Of a stretch of DNA of 60,451 nt, positions 28,442 through 52,807 are shown piece by piece. Every line of letters begins with the position of its first letter. The first letter of the stretch is position 1. This stretch comes from a virus. The position numbers and the translations under genes are program-made. Location of the stretch: IMG/VR virus record IMGVR_UViG_3300043449_000416, positions 1 to 60,451 of that record; one strand, written 5' to 3'. The notes below the pieces were generated by a model. The model searched no databases. It saw nothing but the letters and a program-made list of their open reading frames with translations, and was not told the origin of the DNA.

Positions 28442-28459
28442 GTTAGGGGTCGGACTAAC
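28442..28459. repeat. GTTAG-N-CTAAC hairpin family member
   Basis: gttaggggtcggactaac; preceded by the gcatcgagcagc motif shared with the copy at 28665. Confidence 0.5.
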
Positions 28460-28664
28460 GATGTTCTGGGGGTCGGGGGTTTTCGGGGCCGCGTAATTTT
28501 ATTACGTTTGGCGGCTCCTCTGCTAGTCAGCGACTATCCCCTCGGGATCGTCATGACGACGCTTAGGAGTCTACCAAGTAATTTTATTTCGTCAAGGGTT
28601 TTTACGCCTCTAAGTCAAAAATAGTTGGAAACCAGTTTTTAGGACAGCATCGAGCAGCGCAGGC

Positions 28665-28682
28665 GTTAGGCCCTCGACTAAC
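28665..28682. repeat. GTTAG-N-CTAAC hairpin family member
   Basis: gttaggccctcgactaac, preceded by gcatcgagcagc. Confidence 0.5.
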
Positions 28683-28699
28683 AATTCACTAGATGTTGT

Positions 28700-29170
28700 T
28701 TTTTAGACCCCTCAAACACAAGATGTGGGGTCGATCAACATTTAGTATTTTGGACCCCTCCAACACAAGACAAAAAACGCTTGTGTTTATGTGTAGGTAT
28801 TGTTCTATCAAATGATGTAATGTTACCAATTTTTATCGTCTAAGTCATTGAAAACAAACAATGTTCCGTCTTTTTTGTAATGTTACCGATTGGTGGTCCG
28901 TAAGCCATTGAAAACAAACAATGTTCCTAATGTTCCGTCCAAAATAGACACACCCGACCTTTGCGTTCGGGAGGCAGGGGACTCCCTAAAACCACCCCGC
29001 CAACTCCTCGGTCTCGCATCTCTAATTTTGCCGGACTTTGGTAACATTTAGAACATTGCAGTCTTTTCAAGGGCTTATATATATATTATTAGTAACATTA
29101 CATATAACATTAGGACATTACACCGCCTACCACTAAAGTGAACCAGATAGCACTATTTTGTACCATTTAC
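28700..29170. repeat. AT-rich noncoding region with direct repeats / iteron-like AACATT-AATGTT motifs
   Basis: Two copies of gacccctc(a/c)aacacaag; two copies of gtaatgttacc(a/g)att...agtcattgaaaacaaacaatgttcc; multiple taacatt/aatgttcc units; no credible ORF. Confidence 0.55.
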
Positions 29171-29198
29171 TTGACTTAGCCAGCCAATGTGGTATTAT
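29171..29198 (+). promoter_or_regulatory. Sigma70-like promoter (TTGACT-N16-TGgTATTAT)
   Basis: -35 TTGACT at 29171-29176; extended -10 tgg-TATTAT at 29190-29198; about 80 nt upstream of the first gene of the early operon. Confidence 0.45.
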
Positions 29199-29278
29199 GG
29201 TATTAGTTGTTATGTATCCTGAGTCCCCCTGCCCCCGCGGCCTGTGCCGCTAGTCCGCCGCCTAACAAGGAGCCAAGT

Positions 29279-29533
29279 ATGACCAAAGACCAACTGCGCA
29301 CCCTGCTTTCTATCCTTGTCCCCGCTGCCACGGCGCGTGGCGACATCTACCATTTCACCCGCGTAGGGTCGGGCAATGCCCCCGGCAAGATGGAGACCAT
29401 CAACGGTGTTAGTCTGGCGACTAACGAGCAACCCCAAGTGCGTCCCGCGCGCCCACGTCGCATCTACCAGCGCCAAGGCGTCTACGGTGCAGGGTTCGAG
29501 ATTCCTACGTACAAGCCCCACCAAAAAACCTGA
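29279..29533 (+). CDS. Hypothetical protein (84 aa)
   Basis: ATG preceded by AAGGAG; start refined from track ORF 29207..29533. Confidence 0.5.
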   Translation: MTKDQLRTLLSILVPAATARGDIYHFTRVGSGNAPGKMETINGVSLATNEQPQVRPARPRRIYQRQGVYGAGFEIPTYKPHQKT

Positions 29534-29536
29534 CCT

Positions 29537-29554
29537 GTTAGTCCACCGACTAAC
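29537..29554. repeat. GTTAG-N-CTAAC hairpin family member
   Basis: gttagtccaccgactaac, about 28 nt upstream of the next ATG and followed by an AAGGAG RBS. Confidence 0.55.
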
Positions 29555-29581
29555 ACCAACCCCAGAACAAGGAGAAATCAA

Positions 29582-29884
29582 ATGCAGACAGAACGCACCA
29601 TCAATTTTCGCATCGACGCCGACACCATCATCAACATCGCGGAGATTGCGGGCAACGCCGAATTCTTCCGTGCCATAGGCTACCTTGCACAATGGAACCC
29701 AAGTCATGCCATCTGCGAAATCATCGGCGGCGTGTACGACGGCAACCCCGAGATCATTGCAACCTATCGCCGCGAAGAACGAGGCCCCATCACCTACCAG
29801 ATCGGTGCCGTGTGGCACGAAGGGAAATCTATCGACGGGCTGACGGGCGAACCCCTGCCCGGACACTTCGGCTTCCACTCCTAA
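29582..29884 (+). CDS. Hypothetical protein (100 aa)
   Basis: ORF with RBS caaggagaaatcaaATG. Confidence 0.5.
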   Translation: MQTERTINFRIDADTIINIAEIAGNAEFFRAIGYLAQWNPSHAICEIIGGVYDGNPEIIATYRREERGPITYQIGAVWHEGKSIDGLTGEPLPGHFGFHS

Positions 29885-29910
29885 CGCCAACCGTTAGGCC
29901 GCGCCCTAAC
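29881..29910. repeat. Two overlapping GTTAG/CTAAC palindromes
   Basis: ctaacgccaaccgttag overlapping gttaggccgcgccctaac, in the intergenic region upstream of 29939. Confidence 0.55.
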
Positions 29911-30232: not shown

Positions 30233-30574
30233 ATGACCAGCCGCTCAAAGATTGTTAGTCCGCTTCCTAACGCTGCGCTCCACACGGTGCTTATCATCCC
30301 CTTTGATCACATCTGTGCCTCAACGGCTCAGCTGCTGGAGGAAGAGGCAGATGAAAGGTCTCACAAGCTACTGCTGACCATCGCAAGCTGGGGCACCTAC
30401 GGATGGTTCATGTGGGTGCCGGAAGACCCGGGCGAGCAGCTCAATGCCGAACACTCCATGCCCGCCGACCTCTACCACATCTTTGTCTACGCTAAACAAG
30501 CAGGCGCAGATTACCTGCTGATCGATACCGACGCCGAACGTAACCCAGACCTACCCGTATACCCGGAGGAATAA
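30233..30574 (+). CDS. Hypothetical protein (113 aa)
   Basis: ORF with RBS gggaggcatgagATG; carries a hairpin-family copy at 30245-30262 inside its 5' coding region. Confidence 0.5.
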   Translation: MTSRSKIVSPLPNAALHTVLIIPFDHICASTAQLLEEEADERSHKLLLTIASWGTYGWFMWVPEDPGEQLNAEHSMPADLYHIFVYAKQAGADYLLIDTDAERNPDLPVYPEE

Positions 30575-30670: not shown

Positions 30671-30688
30671 GTTAGGCCAGAGCCTAAC
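30671..30688. repeat. GTTAG-N-CTAAC hairpin family member (perfect palindrome)
   Basis: gttaggccagagcctaac followed by acaaggagaaatgatATG. Confidence 0.6.
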
Positions 30689-30704: not shown

Positions 30705-30947
30705 ATGGAACCAAAGAAACACCAACACTACACCCGCACCACCTTCGGTAAGATGCCTATAGGCACGAGGTTCCGCAGCACGCCGACAGCGACGGCCTAT
30801 GAGTGGCTTAAGGTCAGCACGCGCACCGCGCGGATCAACGGTAACGGTGCAGCATATTACTTCCGCATGGACGACCCGCTCTACGTCAACATTGGACACT
30901 GGGCAGAGATGTTAGGCAACAGCCTAACGGGGGACGACGATGCTTGA
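30705..30947 (+). CDS. Hypothetical protein (80 aa)
   Basis: ATG with AAGGAG RBS; carries hairpin copy gttaggcaacagcctaac at 30912-30929 in its 3' coding region. Confidence 0.5.
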   Translation: MEPKKHQHYTRTTFGKMPIGTRFRSTPTATAYEWLKVSTRTARINGNGAAYYFRMDDPLYVNIGHWAEMLGNSLTGDDDA

Positions 30948-31311
30948 ACCGAGAAAACATAGCCACTGGGCCGCTAGGCCGCGGCTAAAATTCCTCGGGG
31001 GCGTAGCCGAATTTGACCTGTGGTGGAGGGACGACCAGTCAGCGCCGGGTATCCCGAGCGGCGACATCCTGCCGTATTTGCGCTTGGTGACTATAGATAT
31101 GCCATCCGTAGACGACTGGGACGAGCTCCGCGTACCGCTGCATCTGAACGAGGAGACGAACTCAAGTATGGAGCCCGCGATGCGCAGACTCAAGGGCAGG
31201 TGGGGCTGTATAAATCTGACCCTAGCGCAGCTGGCCGAGATACGCACATACCTGCAATGCTTCGCCCCGTGGGTGTTAGGAGGAAGGCTAACAGATGGTC
31301 AACAAACATAA
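30940..31311 (+). CDS. Hypothetical protein (123 aa), paralog of 33211..33516
   Basis: Shares EPR...WAAR...FLGG...FDLW(W/F) and L..L...YL..FAPWV motifs with the 33211 ORF. Confidence 0.5.
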   Translation: MLEPRKHSHWAARPRLKFLGGVAEFDLWWRDDQSAPGIPSGDILPYLRLVTIDMPSVDDWDELRVPLHLNEETNSSMEPAMRRLKGRWGCINLTLAQLAEIRTYLQCFAPWVLGGRLTDGQQT

Positions 31312-31604: not shown

Positions 31605-31916
31605 ATGACAATGAAAGACGTAGTACTAAACAAAAAAGTCCTCGTGCGTAGCGACGCGAGCGGGGTGCACTTCGGAACATTGGTGGAATGGGATCACGAC
31701 ACCGTACACCTGCGTGATTCGCGGAGACTATGGGCATGGGATACCGGCGGAACAGGCATATCCCTGTCCGAGATCGCCATCTGTGGGGTCAAGCATGAGA
31801 CAAGCAAGATCACCATGCCTCTGCCTGATATCATTATTGTTGGCGTGTGCGAGATCATACCGTGCCACGGCATGGCCATAGCTACCATCGAGACCGCAGA
31901 AATGGCCAAGCCTTAG
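31605..31916 (+). CDS. Hypothetical protein (about 103 aa)
   Basis: ORF with upstream aaagggtg RBS-like sequence. Confidence 0.5.
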   Translation: MTMKDVVLNKKVLVRSDASGVHFGTLVEWDHDTVHLRDSRRLWAWDTGGTGISLSEIAICGVKHETSKITMPLPDIIIVGVCEIIPCHGMAIATIETAEMAKP

Positions 31917-31942
31917 TCGAGGGCCTAACAAGGAGAAATGAA

Positions 31943-32152: not shown

Positions 32153-32172
32153 GGTAAATATCTCACATCTAT

Positions 32173-32201
32173 TGACATAGAGTGTCGTATAGTGTAGTAT
32201 A
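32173..32201 (+). promoter_or_regulatory. Sigma70-like promoter (TTGACA-N17-TAGTAT)
   Basis: -35 TTGACA at 32173-32178, -10 TAGTAT at 32196-32201, in the 148-bp intergenic gap upstream of 32301; flanked by tagtgta / gtgttg repeats. Confidence 0.45.
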
Positions 32202-32265: not shown

Positions 32266-32283
32266 GTTAGGCCGGAGCCTAAC
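32266..32283. repeat. GTTAG-N-CTAAC hairpin family member (perfect palindrome)
   Basis: gttaggccggagcctaac followed by accaaggagaaactaaaATG. Confidence 0.6.
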
Positions 32284-32300: not shown

Positions 32301-33209
32301 ATGAACAACGTCACACAAATGGAACTGAACTTCGCACCTGTGGTGCAGTCAATCTCATCGTCGTCCATGCTGGTCGAGCTGGGCATCGGCGTATGGACCG
32401 GGCGGCGCATGGACAAGCGCGCATCCGAGGAAGTCGTCGCTGCCAACCATGCCGATAAGGGCGTGGCGCGGGTGACCAAGAGCCTACTGGGGGCCTGTGA
32501 TGAACTGGACGCGCTCGTGAAGTTCGCAGCAAACGTGCGGAACATCCACTACAACAGCACCCTGCCTTGGTCGGACATGGGCCCGCGTCTGCTCCCCACC
32601 CCGCGCTACTTCGCATACCACAAGAACATGAGCGCCTTGCAGACAGAGTTCTTCCGCATGGTGGACGCGTTCGTCGCTGCTTACGATCTTGAGGTGGCTG
32701 CGGCACAGGCCAAGCTGGGTGACCTGTTCGATGTTAGAGAGTACCCTAACGCCTCCGAGTTGCGTCAGAAGTTCTCGTTCAAGTTCAACTACATCCCCCT
32801 GCCTGACGCTGGCGACTGGCGGCTCGACATCAACAACGAAGCACTAACATCACTTCGGGACCAATACGCCACGCACTACACGGGACAGCTGACCGCGGCC
32901 ATGAACGACATCTGGAAACGCCTCTACGAAACGCTGACCACGCTGTCGCGCCAGCTATCCGACAAGACCGAGGATGGTAAAACGCCGCGCATCTTCGCCT
33001 CTGTGTTCGACCGCATGCAGGAGGTACTGGACCTGATGGAGACGTGCAACATGACGGGCGACATGACCATGCAGTTGATGCAGCGCAAGCTGGCAGCGGC
33101 CTTCAATGGGGTCAGCGCCGAGGCTGTCAAAGACGATGCCTACTTACGCCGTAACACAAAGCAGGCTATCGACGTGGCCATCAAGTCCCTGCCTAGCTTG
33201 GGCTGGTAA
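32301..33209 (+). CDS. Hypothetical protein (302 aa)
   Basis: Well-formed ORF with RBS; first gene after the internal promoter; precedes the MoxR/VWA block. Confidence 0.55.
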   Translation: MNNVTQMELNFAPVVQSISSSSMLVELGIGVWTGRRMDKRASEEVVAANHADKGVARVTKSLLGACDELDALVKFAANVRNIHYNSTLPWSDMGPRLLPTPRYFAYHKNMSALQTEFFRMVDAFVAAYDLEVAAAQAKLGDLFDVREYPNASELRQKFSFKFNYIPLPDAGDWRLDINNEALTSLRDQYATHYTGQLTAAMNDIWKRLYETLTTLSRQLSDKTEDGKTPRIFASVFDRMQEVLDLMETCNMTGDMTMQLMQRKLAAAFNGVSAEAVKDDAYLRRNTKQAIDVAIKSLPSLGW

Positions 33210-33210
33210 C

Positions 33211-33516
33211 ATGGAGCCGCGCTGGTACCGCGCGGCGTGGGCCCGCGAAGATCACACCTTCCTCGGGGGGACGAACGCATTCGACCTGTGGTTCGACGAA
33301 ACTCTGGACGTGCGGGTGGCGATGGGCGCTACGCCAGATAAATGGGACTGGTTCTACTGGTCCCGAGCACGTCAGAAGTATGAGTGGGGGACAGACGATA
33401 TGAGCCATGTCGACCACGACAAGGTGTTAGTCGAAGCCCTAACTTACCTGCGTATCTTTGCACCGTGGGTAGAAGAAGAAATGACCAAAGGAACGAAAGA
33501 ATATCACAGCGAATAG
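33211..33516 (+). CDS. Hypothetical protein (101 aa), paralog of 30940..31311
   Basis: MEPRWYRAAWARED..FLGG..FDLWF...LTYLRIFAPWV; carries a hairpin copy (33426-33443) at the same relative position as its paralog. Confidence 0.5.
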   Translation: MEPRWYRAAWAREDHTFLGGTNAFDLWFDETLDVRVAMGATPDKWDWFYWSRARQKYEWGTDDMSHVDHDKVLVEALTYLRIFAPWVEEEMTKGTKEYHSE

Positions 33517-34372: not shown

Positions 34373-34390
34373 GTTAGGGCATCCCCTAAC
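34373..34390. repeat. GTTAG-N-CTAAC hairpin family member
   Basis: gttagggcatcccctaac, about 25 nt upstream of the MoxR-like gene. Confidence 0.6.
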
Positions 34391-34414: not shown

Positions 34415-35512
34415 ATGTCTAACCAAGCTGTAAACATGTACGCTGTCGGTCTTGATCAGATCGCCGCACTCATCAAGGCCACGGGCCACAAGCGCACCAC
34501 TCTGGTGCAGGGTCACATGGGCACCGGGAAATCCTCGCTGCTCCGCGCACTGTCGGCGGCACTGCCGACCCACACGCCGTGCTACTTTGACTGCACGACC
34601 AAAGACTTGGGTGACATCACCCTGCCGCGCATCGCCGAGGCTACCAAAGACGCCGCCTATGTTAGTTACGCGACTAACGAAGAACTTGGCGCGCATCACG
34701 GCGGGCCGATCATCCTGATGGTTGACGAGTATGGTAAGGCTAACCCATCCGTGAAGAACGCGCTGCTGCGTCTCATGCTCGAGCGTAAGATCGGCAGCTA
34801 CACCCTGCACCCTGACAGCATCATCTTTGCCACCACTAACCTTGGTGCCGAGGGCGTCGGTGACTTGTTGCCGCCCCATGCCCGTAACCGCATCACTGTC
34901 GTCACTGCCCGCAAGCCAAGCAACATGGAGTGGATCGAGTGGGGCATCAACGCTGGCGTGGATCACACCCTGCTTGGCTGGTGCAAAGACAATCCGCAGC
35001 TGTTCCACAGCTTCGACGACTACAAGAACCCCGACGACAACCCCTACATCTTCCACCCCAAGCAACAGCGCGCGGCCTTCGTTACGCCTCGCTCACTGGA
35101 AGCGGCATCGGATATCTTGAAGGAGCGGCTGCACTTCGACGACCAGACCACCACGGCTGCTCTCATGGGCACTATCGGTGAGCGCGGTGCGATGGACCTG
35201 ATGGCCTTCGTCAAGCTGGCGGATCAGCTGCCCTCGCTCGAGAGTATCAAGACTTCGCCCCAGACAGCCAAAGTGCCAACGTCTGCCGCCGCTGTGTGCA
35301 TGGTTGTGTATCGCACGCTGGCCACCATCGAGAAGGAGTGGATCGACAACTGGATGATCTACATGGACCGTCTCGATACCGAGGCGCAGGGTATGTTCGC
35401 CAACGGCGTGCGTGCACCGAAGTATGGCCGTCAGGCGTTGGTCATGACCAACAAGAACTTCACCCAGTGGGCTATGAGTAACAGCTACCTTTTCGCCGCT
35501 GATAAACGGTGA
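34415..35512 (+). CDS. MoxR-like AAA+ ATPase (CbbQ/NorQ/CobS-type)
   Basis: Walker A GHMGTGKSSL, Walker B IILMVDEYGKANPSVKNALLRLMLER, overall AAA_5-like layout; a hairpin copy lies inside at 34661-34678. Confidence 0.7.
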   Translation: MSNQAVNMYAVGLDQIAALIKATGHKRTTLVQGHMGTGKSSLLRALSAALPTHTPCYFDCTTKDLGDITLPRIAEATKDAAYVSYATNEELGAHHGGPIILMVDEYGKANPSVKNALLRLMLERKIGSYTLHPDSIIFATTNLGAEGVGDLLPPHARNRITVVTARKPSNMEWIEWGINAGVDHTLLGWCKDNPQLFHSFDDYKNPDDNPYIFHPKQQRAAFVTPRSLEAASDILKERLHFDDQTTTAALMGTIGERGAMDLMAFVKLADQLPSLESIKTSPQTAKVPTSAAAVCMVVYRTLATIEKEWIDNWMIYMDRLDTEAQGMFANGVRAPKYGRQALVMTNKNFTQWAMSNSYLFAADKR

Positions 35513-35516: not shown

Positions 35517-35720
35517 ATGGCAAAAAATAGTGGAAAGAAATGGAGCTCCGCGGAGCTGACCAAACTGTTCTTCTATTGGAAAGAAGGCGAAACCTTTGAG
35601 ACGATAGCAAAACGGTTGGGCCGCACTAAGGGCGCGGTCCAGCAAAAACTATACGAATACGACATACACACAGACGAGCGTATCCGTGAGAGCGCCGCAG
35701 ATGGAGACGACGATGTTTAA
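35517..35720 (+). CDS. Small helix-turn-helix DNA-binding protein (67 aa)
   Basis: WSSAELTKLFFYWKEGETFETIAKRLGRTKGAVQQKL resembles an HTH; acidic tail. Confidence 0.45.
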   Translation: MAKNSGKKWSSAELTKLFFYWKEGETFETIAKRLGRTKGAVQQKLYEYDIHTDERIRESAADGDDDV

Positions 35721-36972
35721 TATAGGTAAACCACTCAGCGCCGAACAGCGCCTGCAGAAGGCCGTGATCGACATCATGGCCAACAACAAATACATCGCCC
35801 TTGCGGGCATCCTGATGATCGGCAATCGCAGCGTCGAGGATGATGTTAGGCAATGCCCTACCGCCTACACCAACGGGCGGGACGAGGTCTATGGTCGTGA
35901 CTTCGTCGATAAACTCAACGACGCCGAGCTACGCTTCCTAGTGCTGCACGAGTGCTATCACAAACTCTATCGGCACCTGACCACGTGGCGCTGGATGTAT
36001 GAAGAGAACGCTCAGCTGGCCAACCAAGCCTGTGACTTCGTCATTAACATCAAGCTGGTCGATGACAACAAGACCGACAACTTTGCCACCATGACAGGCG
36101 TGCTCAAGATCGGCTGTCTCGACGAGAAGTACCGTGCATGGGACAGCGCACAGGTGTTCCATGACCTCAAGAAGGGTGGCGGTAAGGGTCAGGGTCAGGG
36201 TCAGGGTCAGGGTCAGGGTCAGGGTCAGGGTCAGGGTCAGGGTCAGGGTCAGGGTGGCGAGGGCACTGGTTTCGATGAGCACGGCTGGGACGACGCCAAG
36301 GATATGACCGCGCAGGAGCGGGATGAGTTGGCCCGTGAGATTGACGAAGCGATCCGTCAGGGCGCGCTGATGGCTGGCAAGATGGGCTCTGGCGGTGACC
36401 GGGACTTGGTCGAGTTGCTCCAACCGCAGGTGGATTGGCGCGAGGTGCTACGTGACTTCATCACCAGCACATGTGCGGGGTCTGACTACTCCACGTGGCG
36501 TAAACCCAATCGACGTTACATCGGCGCTGGCGTGTATATGCCGAGTGGTATCTCCGAGCAGATCGGCGAGATCGTGGTGGCTATCGACACGTCCGGCTCT
36601 ATCGGAGGGCCCCAGCTATCCGCCTTCTTGTCCGAGGTGGGCAGCATCGCCGAAACCGTTAACCCCGAGGCTATCCGCCTCCTCTACTGGGACACGCGGG
36701 TCTGCGGCGACGAGACTTACAAGGGAGAGGAAGTGGCCAACCTCACCAAGTCGACCAAGCCCAAGGGCGGCGGCGGCACCACAGTGGAGTGCGTGCCACA
36801 GTATCTGCAGGACCAGCAGATCAAGGCTCAGTGCGTCATCGTGCTGACTGATGGCTATCTGGGTGGATCGTGGGGCGAGTGGCACCACCCGCTCCTGTGG
36901 GTCATCCTCGACAACAAGAACGCCGTGCCTAGCGTGGGCACAGCTGTGCACATCAAGCAGCGGGAGATGTAG
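35701..36972 (+). CDS. VWA-domain protein with N-terminal HExxH metallopeptidase-like motif (partner of the MoxR-like ATPase)
   Basis: HECYH (HExxH) near the N-terminus; MIDAS-type VAIDTSGSIGG; (GQ)n linker; the MoxR plus VWA pairing is a known two-gene module. Confidence 0.65.
   Translation: METTMFNIGKPLSAEQRLQKAVIDIMANNKYIALAGILMIGNRSVEDDVRQCPTAYTNGRDEVYGRDFVDKLNDAELRFLVLHECYHKLYRHLTTWRWMYEENAQLANQACDFVINIKLVDDNKTDNFATMTGVLKIGCLDEKYRAWDSAQVFHDLKKGGGKGQGQGQGQGQGQGQGQGQGQGQGGEGTGFDEHGWDDAKDMTAQERDELAREIDEAIRQGALMAGKMGSGGDRDLVELLQPQVDWREVLRDFITSTCAGSDYSTWRKPNRRYIGAGVYMPSGISEQIGEIVVAIDTSGSIGGPQLSAFLSEVGSIAETVNPEAIRLLYWDTRVCGDETYKGEEVANLTKSTKPKGGGGTTVECVPQYLQDQQIKAQCVIVLTDGYLGGSWGEWHHPLLWVILDNKNAVPSVGTAVHIKQREM
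36181..36258 (+). repeat. (GGTCAG)n hexanucleotide microsatellite encoding a poly-Gly-Gln linker
   Basis: About 11 perfect tandem GGTCAG units from 36187 to 36252, in frame within the VWA gene. Confidence 0.85.
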
Positions 36973-37441: not shown

Positions 37442-38524
37442 ATGGTCTACATCAACAAACTAGACAGTTTCGCCGACGCCGAGAAGCGTTACACCGATAC
37501 CACCCCCGTGCACAGTAAGCACCATACCTTAGAGCAGGACGTGCGCCCTGTCGGTAAGCGTTCCCGCAAGTGGGAGCGGATCATCAAGGTGGACGACAAT
37601 ACCTATGTGCTAAGCTGTGGTGGATTTTTTGACTCCGTATTCGGCGGGGGGCCGGGCGACGAGACGTTCCGTAGGCAATACCCTATCACGACCAAGGAGA
37701 CTGTTAGGCTCGCGCCTATCGTATGGCGCAAGCATATGGACGGTACCGAGACCATCACTATACGCAACGGAGCGGGCGATTGGAACCACAACGCTGTGTA
37801 CTCGTTTGTCTCTCGTGCGCTACCCCGTGAACTTTGGTTTCGTCAGACCCGTGAGGGTAAGCAGTTTATCTACAACCGCAGCCAAGGGCAGACGGTGCAC
37901 CTGCCAAAGACCACCAGCGCGCCGCGCCATGTGATCGAGTACTACAAAGATCAGATACGAAAAATAGCCCCTAAGAGAAACAACTGGGCTGAGAAGTACG
38001 CCAAGTCATACACAACTGGGGACGACGGGCTTAGCGTTACCTTCAAGCGCGAGGCCAACGGTACCTTTACTCTGGTTGGCGAGGCGCACAAGGTCATGGT
38101 GGACCGTACCCGCATCAACAAGACAATGAAGTCCGACTTCAAGGCCGACATTGCGGGTTTGTTCGAGAGTGCAACAGCCCTGTACCCACTGATGCGGACC
38201 CAGATGACGTGGACCCTGCAGCGGGACACTTCCGATGAGATGCGACGTATTACCGAGGCGCTCGAGATTGAGGGTTATACATATTCCCATGGCCCGTTGT
38301 TTAAGTACTGCGATACCACACTCGTTCGGGACATCTTGAAGAACCCAGAACACCCAATGCGCCATGGCCTGAACATCGCGGCCATGTATGAGATTCACGA
38401 CGCGATACGCCGCTTAGGTGGAGATGAACAAAACGACGCACGCAATAGGGCTGTTCGCGCCTGCTTTAACAGATGGCTTAACAAGCTAGGCGGGTTCACT
38501 GTGACCACCCGCGAGGAGAAATAA
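37442..38524 (+). CDS. Hypothetical protein (360 aa)
   Basis: Long ORF with RBS; no motif recognised. Confidence 0.55.
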   Translation: MVYINKLDSFADAEKRYTDTTPVHSKHHTLEQDVRPVGKRSRKWERIIKVDDNTYVLSCGGFFDSVFGGGPGDETFRRQYPITTKETVRLAPIVWRKHMDGTETITIRNGAGDWNHNAVYSFVSRALPRELWFRQTREGKQFIYNRSQGQTVHLPKTTSAPRHVIEYYKDQIRKIAPKRNNWAEKYAKSYTTGDDGLSVTFKREANGTFTLVGEAHKVMVDRTRINKTMKSDFKADIAGLFESATALYPLMRTQMTWTLQRDTSDEMRRITEALEIEGYTYSHGPLFKYCDTTLVRDILKNPEHPMRHGLNIAAMYEIHDAIRRLGGDEQNDARNRAVRACFNRWLNKLGGFTVTTREEK

Positions 38525-41785: not shown

Positions 41786-42403
41786 ATGAGCATGAACTAT
41801 TTCACACCCGCAGACTTAAAACAGCTTGATGCCACTTATAATTACACGGCTCGCGCAGGCTTGGGCTTTGCCATCACCCCCGACAACGAGCAGGTTTTTG
41901 TCCCCGCCCGGGACGTGGAGCGTCTTAACCTTGGGGTTGGCGACACCATCCGCATCTGGGCAACAGACAACTATGCCTCTCCACATACGGCGCACTACCC
42001 GTCACGCTGGCGTGCAGTAAGAGTCGAGATCACATCTCGAGTGACTGACCTTGTTAGGGCAGAGCCTAACGTCGCCCCAGCGCCCATGGGGCTTCCTGCC
42101 CCAGCTAAGCCGCACGTCACTGATTTTGTCGCTGTGATGGCAGGGCTTATGGATGAACGGCGTCCGTGGTCGGTCAACGAGTTGACCCACGCCATTGCCA
42201 AGATCAGTGCTCCACTGGCAGGCACGCCCGACTTGATCCAGAAGGTCGGTGGACGACTGCATACCCTGCACAAGAACGGTGATATCGCTGCGCTCAAGGT
42301 CTACGCGAAGGGCGACCAACAAAACGCCAGCGCGGTCTACTACGCTAAGGGTGTGGACGTATTCTACGACCACCTCGATGCACCTCTCGGTGATGAGGAG
42401 TAA
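41786..42403 (+). CDS. Hypothetical protein (205 aa)
   Basis: ATG with RBS aaaggaaacgaaagaATG; contains hairpin copy 42053-42070. Confidence 0.5.
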   Translation: MSMNYFTPADLKQLDATYNYTARAGLGFAITPDNEQVFVPARDVERLNLGVGDTIRIWATDNYASPHTAHYPSRWRAVRVEITSRVTDLVRAEPNVAPAPMGLPAPAKPHVTDFVAVMAGLMDERRPWSVNELTHAIAKISAPLAGTPDLIQKVGGRLHTLHKNGDIAALKVYAKGDQQNASAVYYAKGVDVFYDHLDAPLGDEE

Positions 42404-45358: not shown

Positions 45359-45621
45359 TTGCCATGCCATACACGAAGTCGCCGCGTCCTTATAAGGCCG
45401 AATACCAGAAACAAATAGAACGTGGTGAGCACCCGGACCGCATGGAGCGGCAGCGTGCTCGGCGTGCCTTGGACAAGAAGGGCGTTGACCGCACAGGCAA
45501 GGACGTGAGCCACAAGAAAGCGTTGGCCAAGGGGGGCAGCAACGCTGACGGCTATAAGCTAGAGAGCCCCTCGAAGAACCGTAGCCGGAACGGCCATAAA
45601 CCCGGTGAGAAAAAAGGTTAG
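45355..45621 (+). CDS. Small basic hypothetical protein (88 aa)
   Basis: Arg/Lys-rich ORF ATGA-coupled to the upstream gene. Confidence 0.4.
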   Translation: MIAMPYTKSPRPYKAEYQKQIERGEHPDRMERQRARRALDKKGVDRTGKDVSHKKALAKGGSNADGYKLESPSKNRSRNGHKPGEKKG

Positions 45622-45634
45622 GGAAAACCCTAAC
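45617..45634. repeat. GTTAG-N-CTAAC hairpin family member (perfect palindrome)
   Basis: gttagggaaaaccctaac, immediately upstream of the helicase start. Confidence 0.6.
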
Positions 45635-48765: not shown

Positions 48766-49671
48766 ATGAGTGAAATGACCCTTTTCGGCGCGGGCAACCC
48801 GCTGGTTAACAGCGACCTATTCAAATCGCTGCGTGACATGAACAAGACCCTCGCTGGCGGTGGCGCTGGTGGCGGTAAGCGTATCTCGATCAAAGGTAAT
48901 AAATTCCGCCTCTTTATCGATGGTGAGCAGGTCTCCGTGTCCAAGGAAGACTATCTGAACGTCGTGGTAGTTAACGCCGCTGCGATCTCGCGTACCTACT
49001 ATGAGGGCACCTACGATTCAAACAACGCTTCGGCCCCAACCTGCTGGTCCACCGATACCCGAACCCCTGCGGCAGAAGTCCCTGCGGATCAAAAGAAAGC
49101 CTCACGCTGCGCCGACTGCCCAATGAACGTCAAGGGCTCGGGACAGGGCGACAGCCGTGCCTGCCGCTACAATCAGCGTCTGGCCATCACGCTCGAGGGT
49201 AAGCCGGATGAGGTCTACCAGTTGCAGCTGCCCGCCACCTCACTGTTCGGTGATGGCAAGAACGGTAAGATGCCCATGCAGGCATATGCCAAATTCCTTG
49301 ACGCACACAACACGCCGATCATCGCAGTCATGACCAAGATGTCGCTGGACGAAAACTCGGAGACCCCGAGGCTATTCTTTAGCCCTGTGCGTCCGCTGAC
49401 CGAGGAAGAACTACATGCGGCTGTTGCAGTTAAGGACGGCGAGGATGCTATCAAAGCTATCACGTTGACTGTCGCACAGACTGATGGTGTCAAGAAGAAG
49501 GACTCCGCAGCGGGGACCAAGAGTTACAACCCCGCCAAAGAAAAGATCATCGTTGATGATGAAGATGAGGTGGAAGAACCCAAGAAGGTCGCCGCCAAAA
49601 AGACCGCCACGGTATCTACTGATCCCAAGGCAAACATCTCGGCTCTTGTCGCGCAGTGGGACGACGAGTAA
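48766..49671 (+). CDS. Hypothetical protein with acidic C-terminal tail (possible ssDNA-binding / recombination protein)
   Basis: 301 aa; Cys cluster (CWSTD...CADCP...C) and an acidic C-terminus ending ...AQWDDE, reminiscent of phage SSB tails; lies directly upstream of the primase-helicase. Confidence 0.35.
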   Translation: MSEMTLFGAGNPLVNSDLFKSLRDMNKTLAGGGAGGGKRISIKGNKFRLFIDGEQVSVSKEDYLNVVVVNAAAISRTYYEGTYDSNNASAPTCWSTDTRTPAAEVPADQKKASRCADCPMNVKGSGQGDSRACRYNQRLAITLEGKPDEVYQLQLPATSLFGDGKNGKMPMQAYAKFLDAHNTPIIAVMTKMSLDENSETPRLFFSPVRPLTEEELHAAVAVKDGEDAIKAITLTVAQTDGVKKKDSAAGTKSYNPAKEKIIVDDEDEVEEPKKVAAKKTATVSTDPKANISALVAQWDDE

Positions 49672-49749
49672 TCCTTAACAGGCTCACCGCGACGGGGGAT
49701 AAAAATAACCTCACCTCGTCGCGGCACCCCAACAGGAAGAGTGGCGGCA

Positions 49750-52608
49750 ATGGATACAACGACGTTTTTGCGGTCCGTTCTTGGGACTGCGGGCTCCTAC
49801 TGCGTTCTTGCGCTCAGCGAGGGCAGACGCATCCAGAAGTTCTACGATACCATCGAGCAGCTTGAGCACGCTGCGCTGAACTTCGATGAAAATGGTTTCG
49901 ATGCCTACTACGCCCTTGGTACGTTCGAGGAAGCAGGGTCACGTGAAGCCGATAACGTCAAGCAGATGCGCGCGTTCTTTATGGACCTCGACTGTGGCGT
50001 TAACCTCAAGACGGGCAAGGACAAGGAATTCTCTGACCAGCATACTGCTATCTTGGCGCTCAGGGAGTTCGTTAAGACTACCGGGCTGCCCCGCCCGTTC
50101 TTAGTCAACTCCGGCTACGGTGTGCACGTTTACTGGCCACTGACCGCGCCCGTAGACTTTATGACGTGGCTCCCGGTTGCGGAGAAGCTAAAGGCGCTGG
50201 CCAAGGCCAAAGGCTTTAAGGCCGATGAGGCTGTGACTGCTGACGCCGCTCGGGTGCTACGAGTGCCGGGGACGCATAACCACAAGGGCGACGATCCTAA
50301 ACCCGTCAGCTTTTTCGGCATTGCGGAGCCTACCCCCGTCGAGTTCTTTGACTTTGCTGCACGGCTAGAGACTGTTGCTGGTAGTCTGCCGACTAACCTT
50401 CCTACCAGACGCTACTCACCTGCGGTGACAAACAGTGCAATGATGGACGCGCTGATTGGTAAGCGTGAAGCGTCGTTTAAAGCTATCATGCAGAAGACTA
50501 TGGCGGGTAAGGGCTGCGCCCAGCTGGCCTACTGCATCGAGAACCGCGCTGATTTGGATGAACCTATGTGGCGCGCGGCGCTCTCTATTGCCAAGCACTG
50601 CACCGATATGGCTAAGGCCGTGAAGGCTGTATCGCAGGGTCACGCCGGATACGACGAAGATGAAGCGATGTGGAAGGCAGACCGCATTAAGGGGCCCTAT
50701 CTCTGTACGCGCTTCGAGGAGTACAACCCGGGTGGGTGCCAAGGCTGCCCCAACTGGAACAAGATCAAGTCACCCATCGTCCTTGGTCAGCAGTTCACTG
50801 AGGCTACGCCCGAGGATAACACCATCGTCGTAGCTGACCCGCAAGCGCCCGAGGCACCACCGAGGGTCTATGAAATCCCGGCCTATCCAAGCCCCTACTT
50901 CCGCGGCAAGGACGGCGGGGTGTTTATCCGTATAATTGACGACGAGGGTGAAGTCAGTGAGCGGATTGTCTGGCACCACGATCTATACGTCGTGCGCCGT
51001 TTGTATGACCCAGAGCAGGGTGAAATTATCGAGATGCGGCACCACCTACCCAGAGACGGGGTTAGGTCTTTCGTGGTGCCCCTCTACGTCGTTACGTCGA
51101 AGGAAGAGTTTCGAAAAGTCCTCGCCACCAATGGCGTCATAGCGATCAACAAGGAAGTGGACGCAATTATGAGCTTTACGCAAAGCATGGTTAAAGACCT
51201 GCAGATTACCACGCAGGCAGACAACGCGCACCGCCAGTTCGGCTGGCTGCCCGACTTCAAGGGGTTCGTTCTTGGGGATAAGGTGATCTACGAAGACCGT
51301 GTCGATTTCAACGCACCGTCAGCCGCAACACGCGGGATGATTGAGTTCTTTGAACCCGAAGGCACTCTCGATGGATGGCGCTCTGCGGTTAATTTCTATA
51401 ACCGCCCCGGCTTCGAGCTGCATCAGTTCATCACCTGCGTCGGTTTCGGCTCGGTGCTGATGAAGTTTCTTCCGATCAACGCCGCGCTCCTGCATATCTG
51501 GTCGAAGGACTCCGGTTTCGGTAAGACGCACGCCCAGTATGCGGCGCTATCGATATGGGGTGATCCTCGTAAGCTACTACTCCAAGAGCGCGATACCCAT
51601 AACTCCCGCATGAACCGCGCCGATGTGATGCACAGTCTGCCGGTCTGCATGGACGAGATCACCAACATCAAGCCCCAAGACGCTTCCGACATGATCTATC
51701 AAATCACCGGGGGTCAGCAGCGCAATCGCATGTCTTCAACAGGCAATACAGAGCGTTATCGCGGTGATCCTTGGAACCTACTATTCGTGACGTCGGCAAA
51801 CTGCAGTCTGATCGATAAGGTATCTATGGCCAAGGCAATGCCGAAAGCGGAAGCCCAGAGGGTTCTGGAGATCGAGACGAGTAAGCTCTTTACCGAGAAG
51901 GCTGACAAGCGCCAGACCGATGAGTTCAGTGCCAAGGTCCAGAGCAACTACGGCCACGCGGGCATCCTGTTTGTGCAGTACGTGATGTCCAACCTTGCGG
52001 AGACGAAGCTCCTCGTCGAAACACTGCAACGTAAAATCGATGAGGCCGCAGACCTTGGCCCGGAGAACCGTTTCTGGTCGGCAGCTGTTGCCACCTCTCT
52101 CGCCGCTGCGGTGATCTGCAAGCACCTAGAGCTCTTGGACTATGACATACCCACACTGCGCGACTACATCATCAAGAACATCCTCAAGGCCAACAAGATA
52201 GTCAGCGCTGAGATGTCCCTTGACCCGATGGACCTCGTGACAGCCTACACCTACCAGAACTTGGGCCGTATTCTGCAGATCAAGTCCACTATCGACCGTC
52301 GCAGCAAGGAGAACGGCAACGGCATAGATGATCTAGTTGTGCCGGACCAGCAGCCCAAGACTGCCGACATAATCGGGCGCTACGAGACCGATCTGCACGT
52401 GTTGTACCTTCTGCCGTCCCCGTTCAAGGTCTGGTTGGCCGAGCAGCAGGTCAACTACAACTCAGTTATTGCCGAGCTCAAGGTCAAGTATAATGCCAAG
52501 AAGTCCAAGGTGCGGCTGACGAAAGGCACCAAGATGCAGATGCCCGTGGCCGATACCATCGAGATACCGATTGTTCTGGGCGACGTTAATGGCGAAGAAA
52601 GTAAATGA
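49750..52608 (+). CDS. Primase-polymerase (PrimPol) fused to an SF3 (D5-like) helicase
   Basis: FMDLDCGV and RVPGTHNHKG primase-polymerase motifs in the N-terminus; Walker A SKDSGFGKT and SF3-type downstream motifs in the C-terminus; start taken at the first ATG. Confidence 0.75.
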   Translation: MDTTTFLRSVLGTAGSYCVLALSEGRRIQKFYDTIEQLEHAALNFDENGFDAYYALGTFEEAGSREADNVKQMRAFFMDLDCGVNLKTGKDKEFSDQHTAILALREFVKTTGLPRPFLVNSGYGVHVYWPLTAPVDFMTWLPVAEKLKALAKAKGFKADEAVTADAARVLRVPGTHNHKGDDPKPVSFFGIAEPTPVEFFDFAARLETVAGSLPTNLPTRRYSPAVTNSAMMDALIGKREASFKAIMQKTMAGKGCAQLAYCIENRADLDEPMWRAALSIAKHCTDMAKAVKAVSQGHAGYDEDEAMWKADRIKGPYLCTRFEEYNPGGCQGCPNWNKIKSPIVLGQQFTEATPEDNTIVVADPQAPEAPPRVYEIPAYPSPYFRGKDGGVFIRIIDDEGEVSERIVWHHDLYVVRRLYDPEQGEIIEMRHHLPRDGVRSFVVPLYVVTSKEEFRKVLATNGVIAINKEVDAIMSFTQSMVKDLQITTQADNAHRQFGWLPDFKGFVLGDKVIYEDRVDFNAPSAATRGMIEFFEPEGTLDGWRSAVNFYNRPGFELHQFITCVGFGSVLMKFLPINAALLHIWSKDSGFGKTHAQYAALSIWGDPRKLLLQERDTHNSRMNRADVMHSLPVCMDEITNIKPQDASDMIYQITGGQQRNRMSSTGNTERYRGDPWNLLFVTSANCSLIDKVSMAKAMPKAEAQRVLEIETSKLFTEKADKRQTDEFSAKVQSNYGHAGILFVQYVMSNLAETKLLVETLQRKIDEAADLGPENRFWSAAVATSLAAAVICKHLELLDYDIPTLRDYIIKNILKANKIVSAEMSLDPMDLVTAYTYQNLGRILQIKSTIDRRSKENGNGIDDLVVPDQQPKTADIIGRYETDLHVLYLLPSPFKVWLAEQQVNYNSVIAELKVKYNAKKSKVRLTKGTKMQMPVADTIEIPIVLGDVNGEESK

Positions 52609-52807
52609 GTTAGACCCCGACGGTGTACGTATCATCGTGCCGTGGCAAGAACTGCATGTGGGGGGCTCCTTCTTTGTCCCCTGCATCAACATCGAGACCT
52701 GTGAGAAGCAGGTTCAAAGTGTGGCAGAAAGGTTAGGGATCAGCCTAACATGCAGGCAGCGGATTGAAGCCCAGCGCTTGGGGTTGCGGATATGGAGAAC
52801 CACATGA
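52589..52807 (+). CDS. Hypothetical protein (about 72 aa), last gene of the plus-strand arm
   Basis: ORF overlapping the primase 3' end; contains hairpin copy 52732-52749. Confidence 0.4.
   Translation: MAKKVNELDPDGVRIIVPWQELHVGGSFFVPCINIETCEKQVQSVAERLGISLTCRQRIEAQRLGLRIWRTT

What the first reader, a model, noticed from the sequence alone, without database searches (positions are those of the whole stretch)
28442..52749. Family of about 20 short GTTAG-N(3-7)-CTAAC hairpin elements concentrated in the early arm
Inverted repeats with conserved arms (GTTAG[G/T][G/C]...[G/C][C/A]CTAAC) recur at 28442, 28665, 29537, 29881-29910, 30245, 30671, 30912, 31275, 32266, 33426, 34373, 34661, 42053, 45617 and 52732, with degenerate copies elsewhere (for example 27583, 35845, 37703, 43102, 50380, 57750). 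Several sit at a fixed distance upstream of an AAGGAG RBS (motif ...GCCTAACA-N-AAGGAG-ATG), while others lie inside coding sequences where they encode unrelated amino acids, so conservation is at the nucleic-acid level. They could be operator sites for a dimeric regulator, RNA processing or stability hairpins, promoter-like elements for an unrecognised polymerase or factor, or targets of a nuclease or modification enzyme.
Basis: seen in the sequence. Interest (0 to 1): 0.8.

Follow-up and report, generated by a model that had tools for sequence, protein, structure and literature searches.

The report
Phage operator array with co-evolving regulator
About 20 copies of an 18-bp palindrome sit between the early genes of an uncultured phage; in related phages the palindrome changes together with one small orphan protein, so it is most likely that protein's DNA binding site rather than a hairpin.

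Summary
GTTAG-N8-CTAAC occurs 17 times (0.23 expected). With one arm mismatch there are 25 (1.12 expected). The spacing is always N8, and all but two of the 25 lie in the + strand early/replication arm, mostly at gene junctions.

The element is family-wide. Eighty related IMG/VR contigs carry 17-18 bp palindromes at the same kinds of positions. Each phage has its own variant, for example GTTAGTG-N3-CACTAAC, GTTAGGGAATTCCCTAAC or TTTACGGAATTCCGTAAA.

The variant follows the first gene of the arm (window 27720-28334, 204 aa), a basic, fast-evolving orphan I call F. Two near-identical phages (ATPase 98% identical) have unalignable F genes, and every site differs between them.

The hairpin reading is weak. 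Both half-sites show the same degenerate preference, (T/C)GTTAG(G/T)(C/G), yet hybrids of half-site variants are about as common as chance predicts. About a third of sites mispair at each inner position. Loops are not conserved, G:U pairs are not favoured, and some sites lie inside coding sequence or upstream of the predicted F promoter.

Best reading, at about 0.58: a multi-site operator array on double-stranded DNA for dimeric F, probably repressing or roadblocking early transcription, like stoperators or phiC31 CIRs. F binding to DNA is not shown and its fold matches nothing known.

The parts
27720..28334 (+). First gene of the + arm, here called F: 204 aa, basic (pI 9.5), an orphan protein. 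It is the proposed trans-acting factor that recognises the palindromes.
   Evidence: This core family is found in all 52 loci (window included) that reach this position. It evolves fast. F clusters at 55% identity or more each have one half-site and spacing class. F is the only gene with no hit between L033 and L039, which differ in every site. It has no Pfam, PHROG, PDB or fold match. The family median pI is 9.4.
27583..27600 (.). Site upstream of F (GTTAGTCGCCGGACTAAT, one arm mismatch). It lies in the divergent region between the late genes and F.
   Evidence: An equivalent site lies upstream of F in almost all relatives, usually 35-50 bp upstream of the best sigma70-like promoter of F.
28342..28363 (+). 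Intrinsic-terminator-like hairpin followed by a run of seven T, directly after F.
28410..28459 (.). 31-nt repeat GAGACCAGTTCTCAAGGCCGCATCGAGCAGC followed by the site GTTAGGGGTCGGACTAAC (28442-28459).
   Evidence: ACCAGTT boxes next to sites are seen across the family.
28628..28682 (.). Second copy of the 31-nt repeat followed by the site GTTAGGCCCTCGACTAAC (28665-28682).
29171..29198 (+). Sigma70-like early promoter: TTGACT, 16-nt spacer, TATTAT, with an upstream TG.
   Evidence: 10 of 12 matches. The site at 29249 lies about 44 nt downstream of the expected transcription start.
29249..29266 (.). Site GCTAGTCCGCCGCCTAAC (one mismatch), in the 5' leader and abutting the AAGGAG of the first early gene.
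   Evidence: orthologues in L001 and L010.
29408..29425 (.). Site GTTAGTCTGGCGACTAAC, inside the ORF 29279-29533.
29537..29554 (.). Site GTTAGTCCACCGACTAAC, intergenic, upstream of the RBS of 29582.
29893..29910 (.). Site GTTAGGCCGCGCCCTAAC, intergenic, upstream of 29939.
30254..30271 (.). Site GTTAGTCCGCTTCCTAAC, 21 nt inside the ORF that starts at 30233.
30671..30688 (.). Site GTTAGGCCAGAGCCTAAC, intergenic, 3 nt before AAGGAG.
30911..30928 (.). Site GTTAGGCAACAGCCTAAC, at the gene junction upstream of the start at 30940.
31275..31292 (.). Site GTTAGGAGGAAGGCTAAC. The SD of the 31295 gene lies inside the site.
31912..31929 (.). Site CTTAGTCGAGGGCCTAAC (one mismatch), abutting AAGGAG.
32172..32200 (+). 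Sigma70-like promoter (TTGACA, 17-nt spacer, TAGTAT) upstream of the conserved 302-aa gene.
   Evidence: Relatives have an equivalent strong promoter followed by one or two sites.
32266..32283 (.). Site GTTAGGCCGGAGCCTAAC, between the 32172 promoter and the RBS of 32301.
32733..32750 (.). Site GTTAGAGAGTACCCTAAC inside the 302-aa gene (it encodes DVREYPN).
   Evidence: It is conserved in L001-L003, possibly through protein constraint.
33426..33443 (.). Site GTTAGTCGAAGCCCTAAC.
34373..34390 (.). Site GTTAGGGCATCCCCTAAC, upstream of the RBS of the MoxR-type ATPase gene.
   Evidence: A site at this position is present in nearly all relatives, each in its own variant.
34661..34678 (.). Site GTTAGTTACGCGACTAAC inside the ATPase gene.
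   Evidence: It is made by codon choice plus an Ala/Thr-to-Ser change. It is present only in the window and L001.
35845..35862 (.). Possible weak site GTTAGGCAATGCCCTACC (one mismatch), intragenic.
37703..37720 (.). Possible weak site GTTAGGCTCGCGCCTATC (one mismatch), intragenic.
42053..42070 (.). Site GTTAGGGCAGAGCCTAAC inside the ORF 41786-42403.
45617..45634 (.). Site GTTAGGGAAAACCCTAAC, at the junction upstream of the SNF2 helicase gene.
50380..50397 (.). Possible weak site GGTAGTCTGCCGACTAAC (one mismatch), inside the primase gene.
52732..52749 (.). Site GTTAGGGATCAGCCTAAC, at the convergent junction after the last + strand gene.

Best explanation
The elements are two-fold symmetric binding sites on double-stranded DNA, with half-site (T/C)GTTAG(G/T)(C/G) and a non-specific 4-bp centre. 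The proposed binding protein is a dimer of F, the small basic orphan protein encoded by the first gene of the early arm (27720-28334).

Proposed mechanism:
1. F is made from its own promoter and terminator unit.
2. F binds one site in its own upstream region, two sites beside the ACCAGTT repeats of the 0.9-kb control region, and about 15-20 sites placed downstream of sigma70-type early promoters at gene junctions.
3. There F most likely represses or roadblocks host RNA polymerase. This would shut off or time early and middle gene expression, and possibly silence superinfecting phages of the same type.

What is shown: the enrichment, the strict spacing, the junction placement, the conservation across the family, the two-fold symmetry without base-pair covariation, and the co-switching of site sequence with the F gene.

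What is inferred: that F binds the sites, that binding is to duplex DNA, that F is a dimer, and that the effect is repression.
For: 1. Non-random and rigid. There are 17 exact copies against 0.23 expected, and all are at N8.

2. Symmetry without pairing.
- The left and right half-sites have the same degenerate preferences. At position 6 the counts are G11/T5 on both sides. At position 7 they are C9/G6 and C11/G5.
- Hybrids of half-site variants occur at about the chance rate. Within-locus shuffles give p = 0.21 and 0.33. Mantel-Haenszel tests give p = 0.52 and 0.13.
- 34% and 41% of sites are unpaired at the two inner positions.
- The centre is unconstrained, and there is no excess of G:U over A:C.

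3. Family-wide concerted evolution. Each phage has its own variant at the same kinds of positions.

4. Natural experiment, L033 against L039.
- The backbones are 95.6% and 89% identical in DNA, and the ATPases are 98.4% identical.
- F is the only gene without a hit, and all sites differ: TTTACGGAATTCCGTAAA against GTTAGTGnnnCACTAAC.
- Identity is 34% in site columns, 81% in the 30-nt flanks and 91% elsewhere.
- The L030/L080 pair behaves the same way.
- F clusters map one-to-one onto site classes.

5. Placement fits DNA operators.
- Most relatives have a site about 35-50 bp upstream of the predicted F promoter, and some have two sites flanking it.
- Sites lie 44-60 nt downstream of strong sigma70-like promoters.
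- Some sites lie inside the first 15 codons of the conserved 302-aa gene, where they encode different peptides in different phages.

6. F is basic, with a family median pI of 9.4.

7. Precedent. Stoperator motifs co-vary with their repressors in Cluster A mycobacteriophages (PMC6550527; PMC9283540).
Against: - Some F types accept both N7 and N8 spacing in one genome, for example L012, L024 and L032. A hairpin loop tolerates that more easily than a rigid dimer.
- There is a weak excess of matched half-sites. It is 95 against 84 +/- 3.9 in heterogeneous loci. Pooled, 86.3% of pairs are formed against 83.3% in shuffles, reached by 1 of 500.
- One clear double change was found between orthologous sites (29537 against L001).
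- About 42% of sites sit just 5' of an SD sequence, a natural place for an mRNA element.
- No integrase or prophage copy was found. A lysogeny-type repressor role is therefore unlikely, and the purpose of so many sites in a virulent phage is only inferred.
Confidence: 0.58

Rival explanations
1. RNA (or single-stranded DNA) hairpins recognised by F. The palindromes would act in the polycistronic early mRNA as 5-7 bp stem-loops just 5' of ribosome binding sites. F would bind them to control translation, processing, stability or antitermination. The logic would resemble lambda N and boxB, where the first early gene and its hairpin change together between phages.
For: - About 42% of instances are 7-42 nt upstream of a start codon that has an SD.
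- 8 of the 17 window copies fold as a 7-8 bp stem with a tetraloop, at -8.6 to -11 kcal/mol, and these are mostly the RBS-proximal ones.
- N7 and N8 forms coexist in some phages.
- There is a weak excess of symmetric inner dinucleotides.
- F is basic.
- The covariation of F with the sites fits an RNA-binding F equally well.
Against: - There is no within-genome covariation at the only variable stem positions, and a third or more of sites mispair there.
- The stem sequence is conserved while the loop is free, the opposite of known hairpin-protein pairs.
- G:U pairs are not favoured over A:C.
- Spacing in the window is strictly N8 although the inner sequence is variable.
- The two halves have identical degenerate preferences, which has no rationale for a single RNA strand.
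- Sites occur upstream of the predicted F promoter and inside coding sequence downstream of start codons.
- Separate GC-rich hairpins that differ in sequence between phages sit next to some sites in relatives.
- There is no Rfam match.
Confidence: 0.2
2. Phage-specific promoter or activator elements. F would be a small sigma-like or activator protein that directs host RNA polymerase to the palindromes. These would then be middle promoters in front of each gene, as with T4 gp55 and late promoters or the T7-type 17-23 bp promoters that differ between phages.
For: - A conserved 17-18 bp element specific to each phage precedes many genes and changes together with one protein.
- In the control region of relatives, a site ends 4-8 nt upstream of a GA(A/T)ACC...CG(T/C)CGAGC element that resembles an ECF-type promoter. 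This puts the site centre near -46, an activator-like position (my reading of the sequences).
- A few insignificant Foldseek alignments are to sigma-A chains.
Against: - Palindromic promoters are not known for sigma factors or single-subunit polymerases.
- No phage RNA polymerase was found.
- The SD can start directly after the site (29249, 31912), leaving no room for a sigma-type start site.
- Some sites lie inside the 5' coding region of the gene they would have to serve.
- Strong sigma70-like promoters already precede the sites.
- The sigma hits have E of 7-10 and TM of 0.12-0.17.
Confidence: 0.1
3. Binding sites for a host protein, such as a global regulator, a nucleoid protein or a LexA-like factor. 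Variants between phages would then reflect different hosts.
For: - The architecture TTAG-N8-CTAA has the same outer bases and spacing as the Xanthomonadales LexA box TTAGTA-N4-TACTAA. This is from my memory of Campoy et al. 2002 and was not checked here.
- The host is unknown.
Against: - Two phages with 95-99% identical structural genes, and so very likely the same host, have entirely different site sets, and the swap coincides with the swap of a phage gene.
- The inner positions (G/T, C/G) do not match the TA of the LexA box.
- Sites occur at nearly every early gene junction rather than at promoters.
Confidence: 0.05
4. Short selfish palindromes, or targets of a phage nuclease or modification enzyme, that spread by insertion at gene junctions and have no regulatory role.
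For: - Some sites appear as clean insertions of about 21 nt, or are displaced by about 20 nt, between close relatives.
- The phage encodes HNH and PD-(D/E)XK nucleases.
Against: - At 17-18 bp the elements are far shorter than known mobile repeats.
- Site positions are conserved across distant relatives, for example upstream of the ATPase gene.
- There are no target duplications.
- A phage would be expected to avoid cleavage sites for its own nuclease, not to enrich for them.
- The nucleases do not co-vary with the site class.
Confidence: 0.04

Closest known systems
Stoperators and operators of Cluster A mycobacteriophages (L5 gp71, Bxb1, TipsytheTRex repressors)
   Same: - Dozens of copies of one short site are spread over transcribed regions. 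Most are not at promoters and lie in short intergenic gaps.
- The site consensus differs between related phages and tracks the divergence of the cognate protein (PMC6550527; PMC9283540).
- Here the copy number is similar, the sites sit at gene junctions, and the site class co-switches with F.
   Different: - Stoperators are asymmetric 13-bp sites, bound by a monomer and oriented with transcription. These sites are palindromic, 17-18 bp long and have no orientation.
- The Cluster A repressor is an HTH immunity repressor of temperate phages. F has no recognisable domain, and this phage shows no integrase or prophage copies.
Conserved inverted repeats (CIRs) bound by the phiC31 repressor (Ingham et al. 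1994 and Wilson et al. 1995; recalled from memory, not found in the paper library)
   Same: - A highly conserved inverted repeat of about 17 bp.
- Many copies in intergenic regions of the early arm.
- One copy at the regulator's own gene, for autoregulation.
   Different: - phiC31 is temperate and its repressor is a known regulator. Its CIRs accompany phage-specific early promoters.
- Here the protein is an orphan, the phage is probably virulent, and the sites follow ordinary sigma70-like promoters.
Lambda-family N protein and boxB (nut) hairpins
   Same: The first early gene is small, basic and fast-evolving, and it changes specificity together with a short palindromic element located downstream of early promoters.
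   Different: - boxB acts as RNA. It has a conserved loop and a covarying stem, and there are only two copies per genome.
- Here the loop is free, the arms are conserved without covariation, and there are 17-25 copies, some outside plausible transcripts.
N4-type hairpin promoters for virion RNA polymerase
   Same: Many relatives have a 7-bp arm with a 3-nt centre (GTTAGTG-N3-CACTAAC), the same geometry as N4 early promoter hairpins (5-7 bp stem, 3-nt loop; from memory).
   Different: - No virion or other phage RNA polymerase was detected.
- Copies are numerous and abut or overlap ribosome binding sites and coding sequence.
- The window phage has 18-bp sites whose inner pairs are often mismatched.

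Membership tests
Multi-site phage operator/stoperator regulon | Many copies of one short conserved site, far above chance, spread along transcribed arms | tested here: met
   17 exact copies against 0.23 expected, and 25 against 1.12 with one mismatch. Each related locus has 5-19 copies.
Multi-site phage operator/stoperator regulon | Sites mostly in short intergenic gaps or at gene junctions, and mostly not overlapping promoters | tested here: met
   74% of instances are intergenic or at boundaries, against 26% for random positions (crude gene calls). Sites lie 44-60 nt downstream of sigma70-like promoters.
Multi-site phage operator/stoperator regulon | The site consensus co-varies with a phage-encoded cognate protein | tested here: met
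   F clusters map onto site classes. The pairs L033/L039 and L030/L080 show the swap.
Multi-site phage operator/stoperator regulon | The cognate protein binds the site as duplex DNA and blocks initiation or elongation | not testable with these tools
   This needs EMSA, footprinting and in vitro or in vivo transcription assays. F has no recognisable DNA-binding domain.
Cluster A stoperators in the strict sense | Asymmetric 13-bp site, one orientation relative to transcription, monomeric HTH immunity repressor, temperate phage | tested here: not met
   The sites are 17-18 bp palindromes with symmetric half-site preferences. No HTH was found in F. No integrase or prophage copies were found.
Structured RNA hairpin element | Base pairs maintained by compensatory change; mismatches selected against | tested here: not met
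   The five outer pairs never vary within the window cluster and so carry no information. The two variable pairs show no within-locus covariation. They are unpaired in 34% and 41% of sites. Only a weak pooled excess of pairing is seen.
Structured RNA hairpin element | Match to a described RNA family | tested here: not met
   No Rfam match at gathering score anywhere in the window.
Structured RNA hairpin element | Stable fold in every copy | tested here: inconclusive
   Folding energies range from -3.3 to -11 kcal/mol. Eight of the 17 copies have a 7-8 bp stem with a tetraloop. The remaining nine have stems of no more than 5-7 pairs (the 5-bp arms, sometimes extended by one or two flanking or inner pairs) with 6-8 nt loops, or do not form the arm hairpin at all, and several fold no better than shuffled sequence.
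Phage-specific promoters (T7-like, N4-like) | A phage-encoded RNA polymerase is present | tested here: not met
   No RNA polymerase family hit was found for any large ORF searched. The N-terminal 1160 aa of the 2105-aa protein remain unassigned.
Phage-specific promoters (T7-like, N4-like) | Asymmetric element at a fixed distance upstream of transcript starts | tested here: inconclusive
   The element is palindromic and its distance to the start codon ranges from 7 to 42 nt. Transcript starts cannot be mapped with these tools.
Host LexA-type box (Xanthomonadales TTAGTA-N4-TACTAA, from memory) | Match to the full box, including the inner TA dinucleotides, and location at promoters | tested here: not met
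   The inner positions are G/T and C/G. The sites are at gene junctions. The site set switches between phages that share 95-99% identical structural genes.

The most novel reading that the evidence does not exclude
F and its palindromes form a previously undescribed gene-expression control module of a large uncultured phage clade. F would be a protein with a new fold that reads a 17-18 nt palindrome in an unconventional way: as an extruded or single-stranded hairpin, as RNA, or as a sigma-like promoter specificity factor. Its specificity is repeatedly re-set across a whole genome, which would create 'immunity types' in virulent phages. A side possibility is that F actively spreads its own sites.
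Probability: 0.2. Interest if true: 0.8.

Novelty: new variant of a known kind. Interest (0 to 1): 0.6.

Why it matters
This gives an abundant uncultured phage clade its first testable regulatory circuit. The clade has 305 related stretches in IMG/VR and no cultured relative in INPHARED.

The circuit has three parts: one orphan protein, one palindrome, and about 20 positions that bracket nearly every early gene.

The near-isogenic pairs with swapped protein and swapped sites are a ready-made specificity experiment. They show that a whole-genome set of sites can be re-written while the neighbouring genes stay about 90% identical. That bears on how new regulatory or immunity specificities arise.

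If F binds DNA, it defines a new DNA-binding fold with a simple, portable set of orthogonal operator-protein pairs. At least five arm or spacing classes are already visible. Such pairs could be useful as synthetic-biology parts.

Tried and rejected
- Nucleotide searches against cultured phages found nothing useful. A protein search with the ATPase found only hits below 30% identity, so there is no annotated relative to lean on.
- The HTH gene at 35517 is not the regulator. It is absent from most loci that carry the motif.
- Two genome-contig scans for prophage or host copies of the ATPase found only a 2-kb contig of a Flavobacteriales MAG, which is not informative.
- A test for loop-type bias found no GNRA or UNCG loops. 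A test for orientation bias of the centre found only the general A-richness of the + strand.
- RBS-proximal sites are not significantly more symmetric than the others (Fisher p = 0.09).
- ACCAGTT as a second genome-wide motif in the window was rejected. There are 3 copies against 6 expected. It matters only locally, in the control region.
- A literature search for the exact site sequences found no paper. The phiC31 CIR papers are not in the library.
- A Z-genome pathway (PurZ) was considered because of the dATP/dGTP diphosphohydrolase domain. No PurZ-like hit was found.

Full report
**1. The window**

The window is a roughly 60-kb tailed-phage genome.
- The minus-strand arm (1 to about 27 kb) encodes the large terminase (with an intein), portal and capsid. 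A 2105-aa polyvalent protein lies on the minus strand at 52.9-59.2 kb.
- The plus-strand arm (27.7-52.6 kb) starts with one isolated gene, followed by about 0.9 kb of repeat-rich non-coding DNA and a block of small genes.
- It continues with a conserved module: a 302-aa protein, a MoxR-type ATPase, a DUF2201/VWA protein, PolA, an SNF2 helicase with an intein, and a DUF927 primase.
- No RNA polymerase, integrase, tRNA or Rfam family was found.
- There is no cultured relative. Nucleotide searches of INPHARED fail, and the ATPase finds only hits below 30% identity.
- The ATPase does find 305 related stretches in IMG/VR. Eighty were fetched with up to 10 kb on each side, oriented so that + is the direction of the early arm.

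**2. The observation**

The motif is strongly enriched.
- GTTAG-N8-CTAAC occurs 17 times against 0.23 expected.
- With one arm mismatch there are 25 copies against 1.12 expected.
- The spacing profile is a single spike: 17 copies at N8 and none at any other spacing from 0 to 20. The reversed and direct arrangements of the arms are at background.
- Single half-sites are not enriched (88 against 90 expected).

The copies are concentrated in one arm.
- 23 of the 25 copies lie in the + arm, and 14 of the exact ones fall between 28.4 and 34.7 kb.
- One site flanks each end of the arm: 27583 upstream of the first gene, and 52732 after the last.
- Using crude gene calls for the window and all loci, 74% of 462 de-duplicated instances are intergenic or at gene boundaries (26% for random positions in the same spans). 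Only 10% are in gene interiors (59% for random positions).

The 'N(3-7)' spacing and the 'fixed distance' to the RBS are not. The gap from site to start codon ranges from 7 to 42 nt.

**3. The element is family-wide and evolves in concert**

Almost every related locus has its own over-represented palindrome of 17 or 18 bp:
- GTTAG(G/T)(C/G)-N4-...CTAAC in the window's closest relatives;
- GTTAGTG-N3-CACTAAC in most of the others, with N3 and N4 mixed in a few;
- the perfect palindromes GTTAGGGAATTCCCTAAC (L035) and TTTACGGAATTCCGTAAA (L030, L033);
- TTTAGGGAATCCCCTAAA (L076);
- GTTATAGAAnnCTATAAC (L069).

Positions are shared. For example, a site sits just upstream of the ATPase RBS in nearly all loci. 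The sequence, however, is genome-specific.

**4. Hairpin or two-fold DNA site?**

Within the window cluster the five outer pairs never vary, so they say nothing either way. The informative positions are 6:13 and 7:12.
- Symmetry. The left and right half-sites have the same degenerate preference. In the window, position 6 is G11/T5 on both sides, and position 7 is C9/G6 against C11/G5.
- No covariation. The two sides are combined almost at random. Within-locus shuffles give 125 paired against 122.3 +/- 2.7 (p = 0.21) and 110 against 108.2 (p = 0.33). Stratified 2x2 tests give p = 0.52 and 0.13.
- Mispairing. 34% and 41% of the 71 distinct sites are unpaired at these two positions.
- A small excess of symmetric sites does exist. 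It is 95 against 84.2 +/- 3.9 in heterogeneous loci. Pooled, 86.3% of pairs form against 83.3% in shuffles, reached by 1 of 500, though that control ignores relatedness.
- One orthologous pair shows a double change (29537 against L001), but hybrids dominate among orthologues.
- G:T is not favoured over A:C, and the central four bases are free.
- As RNA, 8 of the 17 window copies form a 7-8 bp stem with a tetraloop. The remaining nine form only short stems of about 5-7 pairs with 6-8 nt loops, or do not form the arm hairpin, some no better than shuffles.

Symmetric degenerate preferences, strict spacing, a free centre and no pairing constraint are the signature of a two-fold symmetric protein on duplex DNA. 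They are not the signature of a selected hairpin.

The main counter-argument is that some phages mix N7 and N8 sites.

**5. The partner protein**

The HTH gene next to the ATPase (35517) is missing from most loci that have the motif.

The first gene of the arm (27720-28334) behaves differently.
- It has a positional and HMM-detectable homologue in all 52 loci (window included) that reach that far, yet it is so divergent that tblastn finds it in only six.
- It has its own site upstream and its own terminator downstream.
- Clusters of this protein (F) at 55% identity or more each show a single half-site and spacing class.

The decisive case is L033 against L039.
- Structural genes are 94-100% identical, the ATPase is 98.4% identical, and DNA is 95.6% identical on the left and 89% on the right.
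- F is the only called gene without a hit.
- All sites are TTTACGGAATTCCGTAAA in one phage and GTTAGTGnnnCACTAAC in the other.
- Alignment identity is 34% in site columns, 81% in the 30-nt flanks and 91% elsewhere.
- Some sites are replaced in place, some are shifted by about 20 nt, and one is a clean 21-nt insertion.
- L030 against L080 repeats the pattern over 20 kb.

F is basic, with a median pI of 9.4. AlphaFold2 gives a mostly helical model with one beta-hairpin (pLDDT 77).

Nothing recognisable matches F.
- Foldseek against the PDB finds nothing, and BFVD returns only one uncharacterised phage protein.
- Pfam and the PDB profile search find nothing.
- A search of 1.8 billion representative proteins finds 27 proteins, all 64-252 aa, with no fused domains.

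**6. Placement**

- In most relatives the F-proximal site lies 35-50 bp upstream of the -35 of the best sigma70-like promoter of F. In others, two sites flank that promoter.
- In the control region, sites sit beside a conserved GA(A/T)ACCAGTT...GCGnCGAGC repeat and AATGTTC iterons.
- Strong sigma70-like promoters are followed 44-60 nt later by a site. Examples are window 29171 and 32172, and TTGACA-17-TACAAT in L033.
- In L030, L033, L035, L039 and L076, a site lies within the first 15 codons or so of the conserved 302-aa gene. There it dictates different peptides in different phages: TLRNSVN, IVSEALT, VREFPN and LGDSLK.
- In the window's ATPase gene, a site is created by codon choice plus a Ser substitution.

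Sites both before and after start codons, and one outside the F transcript, fit DNA operators or roadblocks better than an RBS-linked RNA element or a promoter.

**7. Mechanism proposed**

F is expressed from its own unit and binds as a dimer to the palindromes. It autoregulates, and it represses or roadblocks host RNA polymerase on the early arm. This would be a temporal shut-off, and possibly exclusion of superinfecting phages of the same type.

Diversifying selection on such exclusion would explain the repeated re-setting of specificity. This parallels the co-variation of repressors and stoperators in Cluster A mycobacteriophages (PMC6550527; PMC9283540).

The binding itself, the oligomeric state and the direction of regulation are inferences.

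**8. Comparison and novelty**

The closest known kinds are stoperator/operator arrays (L5, Bxb1) and the phiC31 CIR operators (the latter from memory).

The system shares four features with them: high copy number, junction placement, a copy at the regulator's own gene, and co-variation with the regulator.

It fails strict membership in three respects:
- the sites are palindromic rather than asymmetric;
- the protein is an orphan without an HTH;
- the phage shows no sign of lysogeny.

I therefore file it as a new variant of a known kind. About 0.2 probability remains that the recognition mode is something new: RNA or hairpin binding, or a sigma-like factor.

**9. Limits**

- Gene calls and promoters are heuristic.
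- Related loci share ancestry, so instance counts are not independent.
- L033 is held only to 11.6 kb, so a second co-switching gene further downstream cannot be excluded for that pair. The 20-kb L030/L080 pair argues against one.
- The host is unknown.

Noticed in passing
window 28340-29280: A non-coding control region of about 0.9 kb lies between the F terminator and the first early promoter. It holds TAATGTTCC/TAATGTTAC iterons, which are also seen in many relatives. It also holds two 31-nt repeats, GAnACCAGTTnTnAGG...GCATCGAGCAGC (28410 and 28628), each followed by a site. The family consensus GA(A/T)ACC-N14/15-CG(T/C)CGAGC looks like an ECF-sigma type promoter, or it may be part of an origin.
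   Followed up: partly
window ~27490-27565, and the equivalent region in L001-L080: A G-rich block (GGGGGTGGGGGT(A/C)GGG) and a 'tagtaatacata' box lie in the divergent region upstream of F and are conserved in nearly all relatives. They could be a packaging signal or a late-promoter signal.
   Followed up: no
window 24202-26688 (-) and 45650-48064 (+): Hint/intein domains interrupt both the large terminase and the SNF2-family helicase.
   Followed up: no
window 40781-41287 (+); 33528-34133 (+): There is a dATP/dGTP diphosphohydrolase N-terminal domain (PF18909, E = 8e-36) and a weak Nmad5 (nucleotide-modification associated) hit. Together they hint at an altered nucleotide pool or DNA modification. 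No PurZ-like protein was found among the neighbouring ORFs.
   Followed up: partly
window 32301-33209, 34415-35512, 35713-36972 (+): A conserved three-gene module of unknown role is present in nearly all of the 80 fetched loci (the three genes in 73, 80 and 78 of them). It consists of an orphan 302-aa protein (motif SSAMLVELSISTWTGRKLDKRAS), a MoxR/AAA ATPase and a DUF2201 metallopeptidase-VWA protein.
   Followed up: no
window 52896-59213 (-): A 2105-aa polyvalent protein has LPD39 and DarB-like C-terminal regions. Its N-terminal 1160 aa or so have no family assignment.
   Followed up: no
window 44091-44696 (+): An HNH/NUMOD4 homing-type endonuclease gene lies between the PolA gene and a PD-(D/E)XK nuclease gene, and its start overlaps the end of the PolA ORF.
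   Followed up: no
L030 11306 and 14897; L012 15466; L079 2955; L022 8967 and 9928: In relatives, some sites are followed directly by a longer GC-rich hairpin whose sequence differs between phages. These may be genuine RNA stem-loops or terminators, distinct from the palindromic sites.
   Followed up: no
L081 (JAKMCW010000090.1): The only genome contigs relative of the ATPase (57% identity) is a 2-kb contig binned into a Flavobacteriales MAG. The phage's strong AAGGAG ribosome binding sites argue against a Bacteroidota host, so the binning is probably spurious.
   Followed up: no
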